From an uncultured Chlamydiae bacterium (GTDB taxonomy: Bacteria > Chlamydiota > Chlamydiia > Chlamydiales > Parachlamydiaceae), in contig CAWHMU010000036.1 in assembly GCA_963830365.1 (NCBI GenBank), positions 1 to 64,000 of the forward strand: 64,000 nucleotides of DNA. Direction: 5' to 3'. Shown piece after piece: positions 50,335 through 60,868 of the stretch (positions are counted from its first letter, which is position 1; every line of letters starts with the position of its first letter). The position numbers and the translations under genes were made by a program. The notes below the pieces were generated by a model. The model saw nothing but the letters and a program-made list of their open reading frames with translations. It was not told the DNA's origin and searched no databases.

Positions 50335-52518
50335 TTACTCCTGTTGTTCGCTCGTTACCAGTGCATGGTAGAGGGGGCAATGCTCCATTAGCCTGGCATG
50401 TGTGCCTTTGGCGATGATCTTGCCTAGGTCCAGCACAATGATTTCATCGCAATCGCGGATGCTGCTTAAGCGATGGGCGATCAAAAGCATGGCACTGCCG
50501 CTGTTGCGCAGATGCTGCATGATGGCATGCTCGGTAAAGGCATCAAGGGAATTGGTGCCTTCATCGAGGATCAGAATGGCAGGCTGCTTTAAGCCGGCTC
50601 TGGCAATCTCCAGGCGCTGCCGTTCCCCGCCGCTCAAATTGGCGCCATTCTCTTCAAGCATAAGCTCATAGCCGCCGGGTCTTGACATGATGGTGTCGTG
50701 CAGGCAGGCGCATTTAGCGGCCGCTATGACAGGCGGCAAAGGTATCGTTGGGTCAAGAAAGGTGAGGTTGTCTTTGATGCTGGCAGTGAAAATGAAGGGA
50801 TCGCTTTCGACCAGAGCCATGCTGTTGACAAATAGTTCGCGGGGTATAGCCTGCTGGCTTTTGCCGTCGAATAGCACTTCCCCTTCCCAAGGATGCAACA
50901 GTCCGGCGATAATCCTTGCCAGCGTCGATTTGCCGCTGCCAGAGGGGCCGACGAGTGCCACGCTTTTGCCGGCAGCCAGTGTCAATGAGATATCTTTGAG
51001 CATCGGTTCGTCGCAGCGGCTGTAGCCGAAAGTCACGTGGCGAATGTCGACCGCGCCGCTCAGTTTACTTGTCTGCTGAGGCCGTGCTTCCGGCGGTTTG
51101 AAGACGCTGTCGATGGGATAGCGCATCAGGTCATCCAGCCGCGCCATATCGACCTTTAGAAATTGCAGGCTCTGGTTCACGCCGGCCAGGCTGACCACGG
51201 GTTGGATCAGGCTGAACAGTAAAATCTGCACGGCGATGAACATCCCCACGGTCAGTTGACCATCGATGACGCGCCAACCGCCGACCGCGATGAAGATAAA
51301 GTAAGTCAAAGCTTGCAATAGCTGCGTGCATATGGTCAGGAAGATGTCCTTGCGCCCCACTGCCTGCAGCGCATTCAATAGTCTGGTATAATATGCCGCC
51401 CAGGTCTGGAAAAAGCGCCGTGTTGAGCCGCCGGCTTTTAGCATTTCTATATTTTCCAGCCCGCCGATGGCATAGGCAGTGCTGCGGGCTGAGTCCGACT
51501 GATAGCGTGCATACATGTCTGAGCGGGAGCTATAGACGCATTGCATCAGCAGGAGGTTGGCGGCCATCACCGACATAGCCACCAGGGCGATGGTATAATC
51601 GTAATAGAGGATCGCCACACCATAGCTGAAGGCAAACAGCACGCTTAAGACCAGCGTGATGACATCGTCGGCCAGGGCATGGTTGATCGATTCATTGAGA
51701 GTTAGGCGGTAGGCCACTTCACCTGGATAACGCTGCAGGTAAAATTCCATCGGCAGCCTAAGCATATGCCATAATGTCTCGCTGCCCAAAGCGACCGACA
51801 GGCGCGTTTTTAAGCGGTTGATGGCCTTGCCTTGCAGGAATATCAGCAACCCTTTGACAGCCATCACCAACAGCAATCCGGCCAGGATGCCGTTTTTCCA
51901 GTCCAGGTTTTGCGCTACCAGCACCCGGTCGATAAACACCTGCGTCAAGGCGGGAAAGGCCAAATTCGGCACGACCAGGCATAGGCCGATCAGGGCGGCA
52001 AAAAGTAGCGCGGCCTTGACGTTTTTCAGTCTATTGTAGATGGCCTCGATCACCCCTGGCGGCCGGCCGCTTTTTTTGAACTGCGTTCCGGGCTGCAGGG
52101 TGATGGCGATGCCGGTAAAGTCGCTGTCGAGCTCATCGTAGCTGATGCTGCGCGGCCCCGTGGCTGGATCGTTGAGGTATACATGCTTTTTGTCGAAACC
52201 TTCAAGGACCACAAAGTGTTCGAATTTCCAGAACAGGATGGCCGGCAGCGGCAGCTGATAGAGATCTTCCACCTCCAGACTGTAGCCGTCGGCCTGCAGC
52301 TGATAGCCTTCGGCGGCCTCGACGATATTTTTGGCGTTGCTGCCGTCGCGCGAGATGCCGCAGGCGATGCGCAGCTGTTCTATGGATAAAAATTTGCCAA
52401 AATGCGCCAAGATGATGGCTAGGCAGACGGCGCCGCATTCGGTGGCTTCGATCTGGATGCGTGTCGGCGTGCGCACGCGCCGGTAGGCGCTTGGCCGCGG
52501 GATGATATTCTCATTCAT
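50335..52518 (-). CDS. NHLM-type ABC transporter with C39 peptidase domain (TIGR03796-like)
   Basis: VRTPTRIQIEATECGA (catalytic Cys), EHFVVLEG (His), LNDPATG (Asp), SRDGS, GPSGSGKS, LSGGERQR. Confidence 0.93.
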   Translation of the reverse strand: MNENIIPRPSAYRRVRTPTRIQIEATECGAVCLAIILAHFGKFLSIEQLRIACGISRDGSNAKNIVEAAEGYQLQADGYSLEVEDLYQLPLPAILFWKFEHFVVLEGFDKKHVYLNDPATGPRSISYDELDSDFTGIAITLQPGTQFKKSGRPPGVIEAIYNRLKNVKAALLFAALIGLCLVVPNLAFPALTQVFIDRVLVAQNLDWKNGILAGLLLVMAVKGLLIFLQGKAINRLKTRLSVALGSETLWHMLRLPMEFYLQRYPGEVAYRLTLNESINHALADDVITLVLSVLFAFSYGVAILYYDYTIALVAMSVMAANLLLMQCVYSSRSDMYARYQSDSARSTAYAIGGLENIEMLKAGGSTRRFFQTWAAYYTRLLNALQAVGRKDIFLTICTQLLQALTYFIFIAVGGWRVIDGQLTVGMFIAVQILLFSLIQPVVSLAGVNQSLQFLKVDMARLDDLMRYPIDSVFKPPEARPQQTSKLSGAVDIRHVTFGYSRCDEPMLKDISLTLAAGKSVALVGPSGSGKSTLARIIAGLLHPWEGEVLFDGKSQQAIPRELFVNSMALVESDPFIFTASIKDNLTFLDPTIPLPPVIAAAKCACLHDTIMSRPGGYELMLEENGANLSGGERQRLEIARAGLKQPAILILDEGTNSLDAFTEHAIMQHLRNSGSAMLLIAHRLSSIRDCDEIIVLDLGKIIAKGTHARLMEHCPLYHALVTSEQQE

Positions 52519-53431
52519 CTTTCACACTCTCGAGTTTCAAACTCTCCAGTGGCAGCATGTAATAGAGCGGCCGGATGCGGTGGATGGTCGCCTGGACTGT
52601 GCCGACGGTACCGGTTGTCAGGGGGGATGGCAGGGACTTGCCCGATGTCAGGCGATAGTCATGGGTATGCGGATCGATATCCAGCTCGATGGTAGCTTCA
52701 ATCACGGCCTCATCGCCAGGCGCCAGATATTCCACCAGTTCCTTATTGTAGATCTGCTTTTCCAGGCCGGCTTGGGGGATGGCAAAGCCCGATACCTCGC
52801 TGACTTTTCCCTGCAGGTAGCCGTATTCTTGGGTATCAATGGTGGAAACGGCGACGTAGGCGGCAGTCCCCACGGCCAGGCGCTTTCCCTGTGCTAACGG
52901 GAAATAGGCGTAGACGCGGTATGGGGCGTGGCCTGCATTGCTGTATTCCAGCCATACCACCGGGCTGCCGGGCGTCAGTGTCTCCCCTTCGCCGGCCAGT
53001 AGTTCCAATACCTTGCCGTCGATGGGACTTGTGAGCCGATGCAGCGGCATTTGCCGTTCGGGATCGGCCATCTCGGCCATCAGCTGGCCGGCTTTAACCT
53101 CTTGGCCGGGTTTGACGGTGATATTTTGCATGAGACCACCGACGGGCGTGTTTATGGTCAGCAGGCGTCCCTTTTGGTTCATGACGATCCCCCTGCCGTG
53201 TACGGTGACGGGCAGGGAGCCAAAAACAGACCATCCGATGAGACCGCCAAGCAGCATGATCAGGCATAGCAGCGCAATCCACATGCGAGGAGTCACTACC
53301 ACAAGCAGGGCGTCCAGCTGCACAGGATGGGAAAGGCGTTCCAAAGGTCCTGGCCGAAATAGGGACGAAGCTGTTCCTGCGGCCTCTTCGGATGTGGGGC
53401 CGGGGGGTGATTTTTCGGTCATTGTGAGCAT
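52511..53431 (-). CDS. NHLM-type secretion adaptor (TIGR03794-like), short form
   Basis: LFRPGPLERLSHPVQLDALL, TM helix, GRGIV, SPIDGKV, QEYGYLQGKVSEVS. Confidence 0.87.
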   Translation of the reverse strand: MLTMTEKSPPGPTSEEAAGTASSLFRPGPLERLSHPVQLDALLVVVTPRMWIALLCLIMLLGGLIGWSVFGSLPVTVHGRGIVMNQKGRLLTINTPVGGLMQNITVKPGQEVKAGQLMAEMADPERQMPLHRLTSPIDGKVLELLAGEGETLTPGSPVVWLEYSNAGHAPYRVYAYFPLAQGKRLAVGTAAYVAVSTIDTQEYGYLQGKVSEVSGFAIPQAGLEKQIYNKELVEYLAPGDEAVIEATIELDIDPHTHDYRLTSGKSLPSPLTTGTVGTVQATIHRIRPLYYMLPLESLKLESVKDE

Positions 53432-53459: not shown

Positions 53460-53630
53460 TCACCCCTTTGTCGGCGTCTGCGCAGGCGAGGTCTCCCGCG
53501 TGGCAGGCAACTTCGGCTTGCTTTGGCGGGCAGGGGGTTTTGGGGGGCCGTATGTATTCCTGGTAGGATATCCCCCTACCACTTGCAATAGTTGAGCTTT
53601 GGTCAGCGGCTGTTTTTGTTTTTTAGGCAT
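53460..53630 (-). CDS. Double-glycine leader precursor peptide A (56 aa; not in ORF track)
   Basis: GGAGG RBS; MPKKQKQPLTKAQLLQVVGG|YPTRNTYGPPKPPARQSKPKLPATRETSPAQTPTKG*. Confidence 0.85.
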   Translation of the reverse strand: MPKKQKQPLTKAQLLQVVGGYPTRNTYGPPKPPARQSKPKLPATRETSPAQTPTKG

Positions 53631-53732
53631 ATATCCTCCAAGCTTAAGTTCATCAACTGGGCCTATACTGGAATATACAAGATGTTTTATTATAATATAT
53701 ATAATTTTAAAAAAGCAGGCGATTTTGGACTT

Positions 53733-53915
53733 TTAAATAACCGGTCGAGGAATGGGATGGTTGTTTAGGAGGTTTTTGGGATTTAGCGATGACGATCCGA
53801 GAGGAATGCCGTAGGAAGGATTGGGTTGATGGGGCGAACGGGTCGGCGAGCATGCTCCCCCTTTGACATACATCAGTTGTTTTTTGGTCAGCGGCGGCTT
53901 TTCATCGTTAAACAT
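53733..53915 (-). CDS. Double-glycine leader precursor peptide B (60 aa)
   Basis: GGAGAG RBS; MFNDEKPPLTKKQLMYVKGG|ACSPTRSPHQPNPSYGIPLGSSSLNPKNLLNNHPIPRPVI*. Confidence 0.85.
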   Translation of the reverse strand: MFNDEKPPLTKKQLMYVKGGACSPTRSPHQPNPSYGIPLGSSSLNPKNLLNNHPIPRPVI

Positions 53916-53995: not shown

Positions 53996-54157
53996 TATAC
54001 CACACGCGGCTACGTTTGGCATTTTTCGGCTGCGCCAAAGCCCCGAGGTTTAACAATCGAAAGTGACCCAATATTCCAATATGGGGTCACTTTCGATCGT
54101 TAAACCTCGGGACTTTCGCGTTGCCGAAAATCGCCAAACCTAGCCGCGTGTGGTATA
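53996..54157. mobile_element. 162-bp TATAC-ended near-perfect palindrome
   Basis: tataccacacgcggcta.gtttggc...cccgaggtttaac.atcgaaagtgaccc / gggtcactttcgat.gttaaacctcggg...gccaaac.tagccgcgtgtggtata. Confidence 0.85.
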
Positions 54158-54177: not shown

Positions 54178-55398
54178 TTACTTATTGATGATGACGATGA
54201 CGGTGCATAGGGTGCCGGTGGGAAGGTCGGGCGGCGGCAGGGAGCTCATCCAATAGCCGGGTGTCCACCATTTCTTGGACCACTTATAGCCCTTGGTGAC
54301 TGGATCGATATCGGGATCGATGACGGCTTCGATGACGGCTTTATCCCCTGGGACGAGGAGGTTGACGAGTTCTTTGTTATAAAGGATTTTGGTGATGCTA
54401 TCGCGCGAGACGGGATAATCGGTGACTTCGGCCACTTTGCCCAGCAGCACGCCGTAGTATTTAGTGTCGGCCGAATAGACCACCATGACGGCCCTTTGCC
54501 CGACGACGACGTGCTTGTTCTGTTCCATAGGCAGGTAGGCATAGATGCGGTCGGGAGCATTTTTCTCGCTACGCCCTTCCATCAAGAGTAAATTGGAGCC
54601 GCGTTTGACGATTTCCCCTTCGTTGGCCATCAGTTCAAGCACACGTCCATCCCAGGGGCTCTTCACTTTGTAATATTTCGCTTGCTGCTCAAGCAGTCTT
54701 TTCAGTTCCAGGTTTTGGGTGAGGTCGCGCTCTTTATTCTTCAGCTCCTCCGAACGGTAGCCTTTAAGCAGGTTGAAATGCAGGTTGGCAATTGACACCT
54801 GGGTGGTTTCTCTTTCGATTTTAGCGGACGACAATTTGTCTTCGGCATCGCGTACGACGGCAGGGCTGATCAGCCCAAGCTCGAATAAATGCTTACGCCG
54901 GGTCACCTCAGCTTCCAGATCGGGGATTTTTTTGTTCAGCAGCTGGACATTGAATTTTTTGGCCAGCATCTCTCTTTTAAGGGCCTTTAGCTGTGCCGCT
55001 CCTTCCTGGCTGATGTCATGCTTAAACTTCTCTAAATCAAGTGTCAAATTCTCCACTTTCAGCTTGGCAGCCGACAGCTTGATTTCGTAGTCGTGATCTA
55101 AAATATCAACCACCAGCTGGTCTTCTTTGACCTCGTCCCCCGGGCTGACGAAAATTTTTTTAACAATCCCGTCCACTCTGGTATTGATGGTGAAAAGCCG
55201 CCCCTTGGCATTCAGGATAATGCCTTTGCCCACGACTTTCTCCGGCTGGAAATAATCATCAATCTCGTAGTAGGCAAGGCTTGTCAGGCAGACCAGGATG
55301 ATGACGATCCACATCTTAGGGGAAAGGCGCTGATAAAATCTTTTTTTGGGGGGCTCAAATGCCGGCTGCTGGGCTGGAGATGGGGGATTTGTTGTCAT
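54178..55398 (-). CDS. Second NHLM/HlyD-type secretion adaptor, full-length coiled coil
   Basis: TM helix, GKGII..KGRLFTINT, long heptad region, SPWDGRVLEL, YYGVLLGKVAEV; clear paralogue of 52511-53431. Confidence 0.87.
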   Translation of the reverse strand: MTTNPPSPAQQPAFEPPKKRFYQRLSPKMWIVIILVCLTSLAYYEIDDYFQPEKVVGKGIILNAKGRLFTINTRVDGIVKKIFVSPGDEVKEDQLVVDILDHDYEIKLSAAKLKVENLTLDLEKFKHDISQEGAAQLKALKREMLAKKFNVQLLNKKIPDLEAEVTRRKHLFELGLISPAVVRDAEDKLSSAKIERETTQVSIANLHFNLLKGYRSEELKNKERDLTQNLELKRLLEQQAKYYKVKSPWDGRVLELMANEGEIVKRGSNLLLMEGRSEKNAPDRIYAYLPMEQNKHVVVGQRAVMVVYSADTKYYGVLLGKVAEVTDYPVSRDSITKILYNKELVNLLVPGDKAVIEAVIDPDIDPVTKGYKWSKKWWTPGYWMSSLPPPDLPTGTLCTVIVIINK

Positions 55399-55440: not shown

Positions 55441-57375
55441 CTAATCACAACTCTCTGCTACATTTTCTGGCCGTCCTGAGCCTATCTCCGGCAGCGAGGT
55501 GATATCCATGACTTCAATGCAATCGCTATTTTCCCCCTGCCAGAATAGTGTAGCGGTCAGAAAACGGATCTGGCCGATGTTCTGCATGTACTTTTTACGG
55601 AAATCGTTGCGCTGCAACAGGGACGTGGTCAGGTTTTCTTCAAAACTCAGCAGATCAAAGAGGGAAATGAAGCCCGCCTGCAGTTTGACGACGCCTTCGG
55701 CAAACAATAAGCGGTTTAGGCGCACATTTTGTTCGGCTTCCTTTAATTGGGCAGATAGCACGATTTGACTAGATAGGGCTGCAGGTAAGATCGTGAGGGC
55801 TTGCTGCATCAACAGCTGCGTGGACAGGATGGCTTGGGCATATTGCGCCTTCCTTTGCTGCAGCACGCCCATCGCGCCGTCGTTATACAGCGGCATGGCG
55901 ATATTGATGCCAAGCGACCAATTTGTTTGACGCTGATGCATCTCAAGGGGCGAAAGCAAGGGTTTGCCGGCTTCGCCAGTTTCAAAATTCGGCATGGTGA
56001 CTTGGCCTGTGACATTGAGTGTGGGCAGACGGTCGTTATTGGCGCCTTTTAACAGGAAATATATTTGCTTTTGGCGCAAGGTAGAGGCTTGGATGTCATA
56101 GCGGTGCCTGATCGAGTATTCAAGTAAATATGGGAATTGAGTTTGGAACCACTCGACATCGAGCGGTGGCAGCGGGAAGTCATCGGTTAAATATAAAACC
56201 TCATCCTTAAAGTCTGTCACTGAGACATCGCCCATGACAAATTCCAATTGTTGGATGGTGGAAAAAAGAAATTGCTGCGCCTCCAGCAGGCTGATTTGCT
56301 GCTTGACGATCTTCTGCTGGGGCTGGTGGATGTCAGTGCGGGCCAGCAATGAATTTTTGATCAGTTGCTTGATATTTTCGGTTAGTTCCCTCAGGCGTCT
56401 CAAACCCTCTTCCTGGATGCCAACGGCTTTTTGGGCAGCTACGGCTTCCCAATAGGCCGTGGTGGTGCTGAAGATGTTTTGGCTGACAGCATGGAAGTCG
56501 TCATAGTACCTGGCATAAAGTTCCATGCGGGCGGCTTTTTCCTGCATCCAATTTACACCGTTTAAAAAGCCGCGCAACAGCGGTTGCTGTACCAAAAAGG
56601 AAACCGAGCCGACATTGTTGTTTACTGTTGCCGGTGAATTGAGGGGGTTATGCAGCCTGTCGACCTGGGCGCTGACGGCAAAGGCCGTGCCTGGACGGGT
56701 GAGGGTGGTGGCGGAGAGGGTGGCAAGCGTTTCATTTCCATTGAGCTTTGTTTTTATAGGCACCGAGGCTCTTTGCAAATCGTCTTGGAAGAGATAGGTA
56801 TTGGTGCCGACGACATTATAATCGAAGGGGGAGGCCGCGCTGCGCAATACGCCGGCTTGCACGTTGATGCTGAGTTGTGAAATTTCCAGCGAAATCTGGT
56901 TCTCAAGTGCATATACAAGCGCTTCATTGAGCGAGAATGGCCGTCCTTTGGGATCTGTGCCGGGCATCATGATGAATGGTGTGTGCGGAAGTTCGGCTTC
57001 AAGTTCGGCTACCGTCAAGTCAGAAAGGTCTGGGAGGGCATCGTTTTCCTTTTCGAGGACTTCGAGGGAGTGGAGAAACTGTTTGCCAAGCAAAGGGTTT
57101 TTTGGCGGCACATCAGCCTGTTTTTTTGGCTGTGCCTGTGCCGGGGATGGAGGCGCAACCTTGCCCTCTTCCCGCATGAGATAGGCTACGAGTTCATCAT
57201 CTTCGGCAGACGCACCGAGCGTATGACTGGCAGCCGGCATCTCGGCAGGGGGTGCTAATACCCCGCTTGCCATAGCTTGAGCCGAAGGCGCAAGCTTATC
57301 ACTAACGGCAGTAGTTTCGGCCGCGGCCAGCTGATTGAGGGCAATAAATGTCAAAATGCAAAGCAGGGGTCTCAT
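55441..57375 (-). CDS. TolC-family outer-membrane efflux protein
   Basis: Signal peptide, SLNEALVYALENQ, VQQPLLRGF, AYWE, LPTLNV, IAMPLYN, AGFISLFDLL. Confidence 0.88.
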   Translation of the reverse strand: MRPLLCILTFIALNQLAAAETTAVSDKLAPSAQAMASGVLAPPAEMPAASHTLGASAEDDELVAYLMREEGKVAPPSPAQAQPKKQADVPPKNPLLGKQFLHSLEVLEKENDALPDLSDLTVAELEAELPHTPFIMMPGTDPKGRPFSLNEALVYALENQISLEISQLSINVQAGVLRSAASPFDYNVVGTNTYLFQDDLQRASVPIKTKLNGNETLATLSATTLTRPGTAFAVSAQVDRLHNPLNSPATVNNNVGSVSFLVQQPLLRGFLNGVNWMQEKAARMELYARYYDDFHAVSQNIFSTTTAYWEAVAAQKAVGIQEEGLRRLRELTENIKQLIKNSLLARTDIHQPQQKIVKQQISLLEAQQFLFSTIQQLEFVMGDVSVTDFKDEVLYLTDDFPLPPLDVEWFQTQFPYLLEYSIRHRYDIQASTLRQKQIYFLLKGANNDRLPTLNVTGQVTMPNFETGEAGKPLLSPLEMHQRQTNWSLGINIAMPLYNDGAMGVLQQRKAQYAQAILSTQLLMQQALTILPAALSSQIVLSAQLKEAEQNVRLNRLLFAEGVVKLQAGFISLFDLLSFEENLTTSLLQRNDFRKKYMQNIGQIRFLTATLFWQGENSDCIEVMDITSLPEIGSGRPENVAESCD

Positions 57376-57483
57376 GTATAGTATAACCAACAAGTTGCCG
57401 GATAGAAATAGTCCAGGGCTTAAATGTAAGTCAAATCTATACTTGAGAAATCAGAAGGTTTCAAGTTTTTTTTTGCCTGCCGG

Positions 57484-59697: not shown

Positions 59698-59783
59698 CGC
59701 AGTTGTTCATCCTGACCATCCTAAAATCCTGTTATTTCTTATTTTTCTTATGAGAATACCGTTGGACGATTTGTAAATCTTTT

Positions 59784-60330
59784 GGTTCATCGCACAATTG
59801 CGTGCCTCCCCATATGTAAACTAATGGAGGATGTTAAATAAATCATACATAATGGCAAATTGCGCGTTCGATCCTGTGAAGGAAGGATTTGAGTTGGCAC
59901 TGCCATACAAGAGATAGGGCACAAGCCATGAGAACATTTTTACAGCCTCGATAGAGGCGGAAGCATGTAGCCACATGCGTCAGCGTGTGGTAATCGCATG
60001 TTTAGAAACAAAGCCGTGAATACGGCGGCAGCAATGACTAAAGGATAGTATATACTATAATAATTGCATCTAATTCAGCTTCCATCGAAATTGCTGTCGC
60101 CGTATTCACGGCTCTCTTTATACTACATTTTATTCCATAGGTTGACACCTATGGCTACATGCTTCCGCCTCTATCGAGGCTAACTAGACCTTCTGTGCTA
60201 GAATGCCGATTTGTTTCAAAGAGAACCTACAAATAGATCATTACTTCTCATATTTCAACCAGCAATTACTAAGGCTTTTTGACGAATCATCGGCGGTATT
60301 TTTGCAACTCCCTCATTTGTGCGATGAACC
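59784..60330. mobile_element. MITE with 8-bp TSD aatctttt carrying nested REP-like inverted repeats
   Basis: ggttcatcgcacaa / ttgtgcgatgaacc; aatctttt at 59776-59783 and 60331-60338. Confidence 0.88.
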
Positions 60331-60423
60331 AATCTTTTTCATAAAAATAGGCTGGTTGGTTTTATCCTGTTTGTAAAAAACAAAGTATATTATAATAAAA
60401 CAAGAGATACGGCAGGAGGTTTT

Positions 60424-60555
60424 ATGAAGAAAATAGACAAAAAACCGCTGACTAAAACACAACTGGCACAGGTCGCCGCCGCCCGCAGGGAAAGTCCGAG
60501 TTTGGATAAACGTTATACCGATGAATCCGGCGGCAGAAGAATCATTAAAAGGTAG
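60424..60555 (+). CDS. Precursor-like peptide C (43 aa; not in ORF track), same leader but ending AA
   Basis: AGGAGG RBS; MKKIDKKPLTKTQLAQVAAA|RRESPSLDKRYTDESGGRRIIKR*. Confidence 0.75.
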   Translation: MKKIDKKPLTKTQLAQVAAARRESPSLDKRYTDESGGRRIIKR

Positions 60556-60561
60556 GCTATT

Positions 60562-60724
60562 TATACTGCAGCCGGCATCAACATTCGATTTATGGACGCA
60601 TCTTTTCTCGCCGAAATGTCGTTTCAAAAGCGAGCCTACAAATATGTATGTCACGCTTTCGAAACGACATTTCGGCGAAAAAATCTACATCCATAAATCG
60701 AATGTTGATGCCGGCTGCAGTATA
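60562..60724. mobile_element. Near-perfect palindromic element flanked by TA, inserted in a terminator
   Basis: TA-tactgcagccggcatcaacattcgatttatgga ... tccataaatcgaatgttgatgccggctgcagta-TA. Confidence 0.85.
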
Positions 60725-60868
60725 ACAGTAAATAGCCTTTTTTATTCTCTGTGTCTCTGTATCTCTGTGGTGAATTTCTTTGCCTGCCACAATGATCAAG
60801 TCTGATTTTTCATTTATAACGGCAACCATTTTTGAATTCGGGTACGGGCTCCCATTGAGCCTGTGTTG

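What the first reader, a model, noticed from the sequence alone, without database searches (positions are those of the whole stretch)
60424..60555. Third, dispersed member of the leader family with AA instead of GG
Seen: about 6.5 kb from the precursors, on the opposite strand, an AGGAGG-preceded 43-aa ORF starts MKKIDKKPLTKTQLAQVAAA, with PLTKxQLxxV at the same positions 8-17. Its tail (RRESPSLDKRYTDESGGRRIIKR) is charged rather than Pro-rich. Known: C39 domains accept GG/GA/GS, and Gly at -2 is the most conserved position. Inference: a non-cleavable decoy or regulator, a relaxed-specificity substrate, or a decaying paralogue; it suggests a scattered substrate repertoire served by one exporter.
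Basis: partly seen in the sequence, partly recalled or inferred. Interest (0 to 1): 0.75.

Follow-up and report, generated by a model that had tools for sequence, protein, structure and literature searches.

The report
Conserved Ala-Ala variant of double-glycine peptide
This is a small gene from an environmental chlamydia, with one 77% identical homologue, whose export leader ends in Ala-Ala where such peptides normally carry Gly-Gly; the same ending recurs in other chlamydial peptides, so their exporters likely cut at a site that Gly-based searches would miss.

Summary
The ORF is real and not chance. It keeps 8 of 8 leader residues shared by precursors A and B; of 145,603 start-anchored frames only A, B and C do, next best 5. 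It shares a genome-unique 17-bp TATAAT element with B and ends at a terminator-like stem. A 77% identical homologue keeps the Ala-Ala site and the tail, so decay is unlikely. A fourth, Gly-Gly member lies on another contig; the genome has one C39 exporter. Ala-Ala is not unique: 21 of 80 chlamydial NHLP precursors read end in it (biased sample), some beside an intact exporter as its only NHLP precursors found, against 0 of 30 in non-chlamydial clusters. Best reading (0.52): a dispersed cargo of the NHLM-type exporter, cut after Ala-Ala. An uncut binder or decoy remains open (0.25): no other own-family short leader has Ala-Ala (0 of 18), and published PCATs need a Gly motif. Cleavage, export and expression are untested.

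The parts
60424..60555 (+). Peptide C, 43 aa: 20-residue leader (60424-60483) and 23-residue predicted core (60484-60552)
   Evidence: homologue P0003 77% identical
60478..60483 (+). Ala19-Ala20 (GCC GCC) at positions -2/-1, where A, B and D have Gly-Gly; anchors L9 (-12), L14 (-7), V17 (-4) kept
   Evidence: codon table; positions
60414..60419 (+). Shine-Dalgarno AGGAGG, 4 nt before the ATG
60386..60402 (+). 17-bp AT-rich element holding TATAAT, likely a -10 region; identical copy upstream of B
   Evidence: 2 copies in the genome at 0 and at 1 mismatch; no full sigma-70 site called by the scanner
53683..53699 (-). The same 17-bp element, 52 nt upstream of B's ATG
60554..60743 (+). Terminator-like stem (arms 60554-60563 and 60729-60738, then six T) starting at C's stop codon, with a 163-bp palindromic repeat (60562-60724) between the arms
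   Evidence: fold; element ends from copies; 8 loci; not called by the scanner
59782..60332 (.). MITE-like dispersed repeat with terminal inverted repeats; not specific to this gene
   Evidence: (106 loci)
53733..53915 (-). Precursor A, 60 aa, Gly-Gly leader
53460..53630 (-). Precursor B, 56 aa, Gly-Gly leader; closest paralogue of C
   Evidence: E 0.01 to the C profile
50335..52518 (-). NHLM-type peptidase-containing ABC transporter (PCAT) with C39 domain; Q22, C28, H101, D117 present
   Evidence: TIGR03796 867.5 bits, cut-off 853.3; PF03412; only C39 match in the genome
48112..50331 (-). Second ABC subunit without peptidase
   Evidence: TIGR03797 708.1 bits, just under the 709.4 cut-off
52511..53431 (-). 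HlyD-like adaptor, 306 aa
   Evidence: TIGR03794 176.8 bits, above cut-off
54178..55398 (-). Second HlyD-like adaptor, 406 aa
   Evidence: TIGR03794 120.8 bits, below cut-off
55441..57393 (-). TolC-like outer-membrane channel
   Evidence: PF02321

Best explanation
C is a conserved 43-residue paralogue of the double-glycine precursors A, B and D that is likely cargo of the genome's single C39-peptidase ABC exporter and is predicted to be cut after Ala-Ala to release a 23-residue charged peptide. Shown: the gene, its homology to A and B, the three hydrophobic anchors (L-12, L-7, V-4), a homologue with the same site and tail, one C39 exporter with its catalytic residues, and recurring Ala-Ala leaders in other chlamydial clusters. 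Inferred: transcription from the element shared with B, docking of the leader helix in the C39 groove, cleavage after Ala20, and export through HlyD-TolC without modification. What the released peptide does is not shown; a signal or effector role is more likely than a modified antibiotic, since no YcaO was found and the core has no Cys.
For: Homology: 8 of 8 shared positions, 3 of 145,603 frames. Gene anatomy: unique 17-bp element shared with B, SD, stop at a terminator-like stem, codon use like A and B (0.69 against 0.68 and 0.70; other frames 0.56, 0.60). Selection: P0003, E 1.2e-11, 77% identical, same anchors and Ala-Ala; 14 of 20 leader and 19 of 23 tail residues identical. Site: 21 of 80 chlamydial NHLP ORFs end in AA, 27 in AG, 17 in GG; 5 genomes had only AA precursors; in G391 and G284 these lie in the cluster with HlyD and a PCAT above cut-off; 8 of 21 have no Gly at +1. 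A short AA peptide with a K-K-P-L start of the motif lies directly before HlyD-PCAT in G032. Catalytic Q, C, H, D invariant in 38 of 38 chlamydial C39 domains. AA needs 5 changes on the PCAT tree, at least 4 forced. Anchors -4, -7, -12 drive recognition (PMC6363468, sections read; PMC6959990, passages). Complex model: score 0.45, best of 3 controls 0.02, runs agree in at least 80% of contacts, partner pLDDT 50-54; weak support only (mark reached by 116 of 157 solved and 2 of 215 mismatched pairs, at 0.60 or under by 18 solved and both mismatches), and like complexes are solved.
Against: No cleavage, export or expression data. Passages read say the GG motif is needed for binding and cleavage and the cleft is narrow (PMC7018657, PMC6959990); accepted sites are given as GG, GA, GS (PMC10885120, PMC12219008). 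In the window's own family 0 of 18 short leaders read have AA (10 GG, 4 AG, 4 GA), and this PCAT groups with PCATs of genomes where no AA leader was found, not with the AA clade (SH-aLRT 100), so the comparative support comes from other families and mostly from long NHLP leaders. 13 of 21 AA precursors have Gly at +1 and could be cut one or two residues later; C cannot. P0003 has one extra Ala at the junction, so the predicted cores would start differently. The 21 of 80 is inflated by sampling.
Confidence: 0.52

Rival explanations
1. C binds the C39 groove through its anchors but is not cut. It acts as a decoy that damps export of A, B and D, or it is exported whole.
For: Anchors kept while both Gly are replaced in C and in P0003; Gly motif reported as needed for cleavage (PMC7018657 passage); no AA among 18 own-family short leaders; own PCAT outside the AA clade; element shared with B fits co-regulation.
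Against: The tail is better kept than the leader (19 of 23 against 14 of 20), as expected of cargo; genomes whose only NHLP precursors end in AA beside an intact PCAT cannot all be decoys; the same passage says GG is also needed for binding in other PCATs.
Confidence: 0.25
2. C arose from a B-like gene but no longer depends on this peptidase: it works inside the cell, leaves by another route, or is trimmed by another protease or at the internal Gly36-Gly37.
For: Separate transcription unit on the other strand; tail unlike A and B; the internal GG is kept in P0003; genome 82% complete, so another processing enzyme may be missing.
Against: L-12, L-7, V-4 are kept in both copies while neighbouring leader residues change. 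The internal GG has E, Y, S at -4, -7, -12, and an acidic residue at -4 blocked LahT150 (PMC6363468).
Confidence: 0.17
3. C is a decaying paralogue, a frameshifted relic or an assembly slip in the GCC run.
For: Flanked by two mobile-looking repeats; the exact sequence is not in the protein collection, whereas B and D are; the +1 frame after the GCC run is open.
Against: An independent homologue has the same Ala run, frame and tail; the stop sits at the base of the terminator-like stem while the +1 frame reads through it; leader codons differ from B at silent sites while residues are kept.
Confidence: 0.06

Closest known systems
Double-glycine (GG) peptides exported by PCAT/AMS transporters (class II bacteriocins and microcins, ComC; TIGR01847-type leader)
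   Same: Short N-terminal leader with hydrophobic -12, -7, -4; small gene; PCAT with HlyD and TolC; orphan GG peptides away from their PCAT are known (PMC7018657 passage).
   Different: Ala-Ala at -2/-1 lies outside the GG/GA/GS set and outside the G[GAS] search patterns of PMC12219008; leader is basic; no Pfam or NCBIfam match for A, B or C.
NHLP/NHLM export system (TIGR03794, TIGR03796, TIGR03797; Haft et al. 2010, PMC2887384)
   Same: Same three-gene exporter type; precursors may lie far from export genes; last 13 leader residues alike.
   Different: No nitrile-hydratase-like leader in this genome (TIGR03793: 0 matches), no YcaO found; substrates are short-leader peptides; that paper describes a classic Gly-Gly site.
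LahT150 of Lachnospiraceae (PDB 6MPZ; PMC6363468)
   Same: Closest solved relative of the window's C39 domain (E 4.3e-39); one tolerant peptidase serving several precursors with varied cores.
   Different: Cuts reported after GG, GA and GS in the sections read; no Ala-Ala cut described there (substrate sequences are in figure supplements that I could not see).

Membership tests
Double-glycine (GG) leader peptide | Hydrophobic residues at -12, -7, -4 | tested here: met
   L9, L14, V17 in C and P0003
Double-glycine (GG) leader peptide | GG, GA or GS at -2/-1 | tested here: not met
   Ala-Ala; so C is not filed as a canonical GG peptide
Double-glycine (GG) leader peptide | Cognate PCAT with catalytic C39 domain in the genome | tested here: met
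Double-glycine (GG) leader peptide | Leader removed and core exported by the PCAT | not testable with these tools
   needs an assay; complex model gives weak support for binding only
Double-glycine (GG) leader peptide | Match to a curated leader model | tested here: not met
   no Pfam or NCBIfam match at E up to 1, also none for A and B; ComC and type-A lantibiotic clusters at 0.87 and 0.85 in the Atlas are leads only
NHLP precursor (TIGR03793) | Long nitrile-hydratase-like leader | tested here: not met
   20-residue leader; 0 matches in G000
NHLM export cassette | TIGR03796, TIGR03797 and TIGR03794 genes together | tested here: met
   two above cut-off, TIGR03797 1.3 bits under
Modified RiPP (TOMM or lanthipeptide) | YcaO or LanM enzymes and a Cys/Ser/Thr-rich core | tested here: inconclusive
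   no YcaO match; LanC-like search rang in no control; genome 82% complete; core has 4 Ser/Thr, no Cys

The most novel reading that the evidence does not exclude
C is a genome-encoded, co-regulated and conserved uncleavable leader mimic that occupies the C39 domain and throttles export: a natural PCAT inhibitor made from a substrate by swapping Gly-Gly for Ala-Ala.
Probability: 0.15. Interest if true: 0.8.

Novelty: new variant of a known kind. Interest (0 to 1): 0.6.

Why it matters
If chlamydial PCATs cut after Ala-Ala and Ala-Gly, the Gly-at-minus-2 rule is not general, and searches written as G[GAS] (PMC12219008) would miss many peptides of a system found in 66 of 400 genomes of this order. 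These bacteria live inside host cells (recalled), so the cargo could be unknown signals or effectors. This genome offers a clean test: one peptidase, three GG substrates and one AA substrate. If C is not cut, it is a candidate natural inhibitor. My searches turned up no paper on Ala-Ala PCAT sites or on these chlamydial peptides; two papers note RiPP-like or proteusin clusters in chlamydiae (bioRxiv 10.1101/2021.12.21.473556 and PMC13229535, passages). Most subscription papers are not in the library.

Tried and rejected
Sequencing runs: none was listed, so no read or expression check. Word-index protein search with C: no candidate; the exhaustive search did find P0003, and the two-row profile found only P0003 among 5 candidates. 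C against 41 related genomes: 5 weak matches outside G000, E 0.26-0.76, none a leader peptide. C+P0003 profile: no orthologue in 400 order genomes or in genome contigs. Metagenome scan with the neighbouring gene: only distant relatives, best segments 30-41% identical. The repeat upstream of both C and D: rejected as a specific link, 106 loci. Promoter and terminator scanner: 0 and 0 calls. The AA pattern search gave many matches inside large proteins or without a start; 10 checked singly were not small peptides. No C39 residue that tracks AA was seen by eye; not tested formally. 'Ala-2' in the synthesis section of PMC6363468 was not used, since the inhibitor ends in Gly-Gly. The LctT -1/-2 mutagenesis paper and the LahA paper were not held. 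A one-clade test on the PCAT tree did not finish and the tree is the quick one; G375 was left out as broken. Earlier findings: none.

Full report
Observation. The 43-aa ORF at 60424-60555 (+) is as described, with AGGAGG 4 nt before the ATG. Precursors A (53915-53733) and B (53630-53460) lie 6.5-6.8 kb away on the other strand, inside a cluster of TolC, two HlyD-like adaptors, a C39-containing ABC subunit (TIGR03796, above cut-off) and a second ABC subunit (TIGR03797, 1.3 bits under cut-off). The best-ranked relatives of this exporter among named genomes are titled Parachlamydiaceae or Chlamydiae, so I treat the organism as an environmental chlamydia.

Not chance. PLTKxQLxxV, definable from A and B alone, occurs 3 times in 5.46 million six-frame residues against 0.008 expected. 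C keeps all 8 positions shared by A and B between residues 2 and 17; of 145,603 start-anchored frames only A, B and C do, the next best keep 5. Against a wider Gly-Gly profile without C the match is weak (E 3.69), and E 0.0078 once other Ala-Ala leaders are in the profile. The homology rests on the within-genome comparison.

Gene anatomy. B and C share an identical 17-bp AT-rich element holding TATAAT, found twice in the genome even at one mismatch. C's stop codon lies at the base of a stem followed by six T; a 163-bp palindromic repeat with 8 loci sits between the arms. The scanner called neither promoter nor terminator, so both are inferred. The 550-bp repeat upstream has 106 loci and is not specific.

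Repertoire. A fourth member, D (52 aa, Gly-Gly), lies on contig C28. One C39 domain was found in the 82% complete genome, with Q22, C28, H101 and D117. In 20 exporter-bearing genomes a profile without C found further small leader ORFs away from the exporter, several in G009, G019 and G028. The exporter occurs in 66 of 400 order genomes.

Conservation. An exhaustive search found 4 proteins at E up to 0.001; three are long proteins matching only the tail region, and one, P0003, is a full-length homologue (44 aa, E 1.2e-11, 77%). It keeps L-12, L-7, V-4 and Ala-Ala, adds one Ala after the site, and is identical at 14 of 20 leader and 19 of 23 tail positions. Synteny is inferred from that match only. 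This makes decay, frameshift or assembly error unlikely.

The Ala-Ala site elsewhere. A degenerate pattern over 73 exporter-bearing genomes gave many chance matches but also true NHLP precursors ending in Ala-Ala. I then read positions -2/-1 without fixing them, in the 75 loci from TIGR03793 searches: 80 ORFs from 37 genomes gave AG 27, AA 21, GG 17, GA 3, other 6, unread 6. The sample is biased: 15 genomes were chosen after the pattern search and read fully, while only 30 of 96 matches of the other 58 came with loci. AA appeared in 9 genomes of two families. In 5 it was the only ending found; of these G391, G284, G355 and G404 have a PCAT above cut-off and G375 a broken one. In G391 and G284 the AA precursors lie in the cluster with HlyD, PCAT and YcaO-pathway genes. 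In a third family a short peptide ending in three Ala overlaps an NHLP gene just before HlyD. In 70 non-chlamydial loci a site-blind motif gave 27 GG, 3 AG and 0 AA of 30 (a second reading by profile gave 17 GG, 1 AG, 1 misread and 16 unread of 35). The catalytic residues are invariant in 38 of 38 chlamydial domains. On a quick PCAT tree of 40 rows the AA label needs 5 changes.

Against the best reading. The window's PCAT groups with those of own-family genomes where no AA leader was found, and 0 of 18 own-family short leaders have AA. 13 of 21 AA precursors have Gly at +1 and might be cut later; 8 do not. Papers give GG, GA and GS as the accepted sites and call the Gly motif necessary (passages of PMC10885120, PMC7018657, PMC6959990, PMC12219008). 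In PMC6363468 (results and discussion read) recognition rests on -4, -7 and -12, -3 is tolerant, and -1/-2 were not mutated; its figure supplements with substrate sequences were not seen and may bear on Ala at -2. PMC2887384, PMC9576775, PMC12537861, PMC13229535 and bioRxiv 10.1101/2021.12.21.473556 were seen as passages only. A predicted complex of the C39 domain with C scored 0.45 against 0.02 for the best of 3 controls, rated weak, with like complexes already solved.

Mechanism. Most likely C is transcribed on its own from an element shared with B, its leader helix docks in the C39 groove, and the peptidase cuts after Ala20 and exports a 23-residue peptide of net charge +4 through HlyD and TolC (0.52). 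All steps after the sequence facts are inferred. Rivals: bound or exported but uncut (0.25), independent of this peptidase (0.17), relic or artefact (0.06).

Verdict. A new variant of a known kind: it works like a double-glycine PCAT substrate but fails the Gly-motif test for membership. Interest 0.6, because the variant is conserved, recurs across chlamydial lineages, and can be settled by one cleavage assay.

Noticed in passing
G000:C28:14257-14415 (-) = L148:3257-3415: Fourth member D, 52 aa, Gly-Gly leader, two Cys in the core, on another contig; present in the protein collection.
   Followed up: partly
L322-L329, L331, L332, L315, L317 (family f43): NHLP precursors with an Ala-Gly or Thr-Gly site and almost no core: 0-5 residues in 11 of 12 read, beside intact PCATs. 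A leader with no cargo is unexplained.
   Followed up: no
window 59782-60332: About 550-bp MITE-like repeat with nested inverted repeats, 106 loci in a 2.7-Mb genome, some copies nested in or split by others.
   Followed up: partly
window 60562-60724: 163-bp near-perfect palindromic repeat with TATA ends, 8 loci; one copy lies inside a copy of the larger repeat on C16.
   Followed up: partly
window 53996-54157: Another palindromic dispersed repeat upstream of precursor A, 33 loci.
   Followed up: no
L281, L284, L288, L291, L293, L295, L299 (G264:C1:1853969-1857538): Tandem array of at least 7 NHLP precursors, mostly Ala-Ala, about 10 kb from the PCAT; a related genome (G031) has a similar set with Ala-Gly and Gly-Gly.
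   Followed up: partly
L180, L181, L182 (G009): At least 8 short Lys/Gly/Ala-rich peptides with a near-identical leader ending in GG or GA, away from the exporter.
   Followed up: no
G300: 30 NHLP-domain matches scattered over one chromosome, many as tandem double leaders.
   Followed up: no
window 54178-55398 and 52511-53431: Two HlyD-like adaptors in one cluster, one short (306 aa); two adaptors also flank the exporter in several relatives.
   Followed up: no
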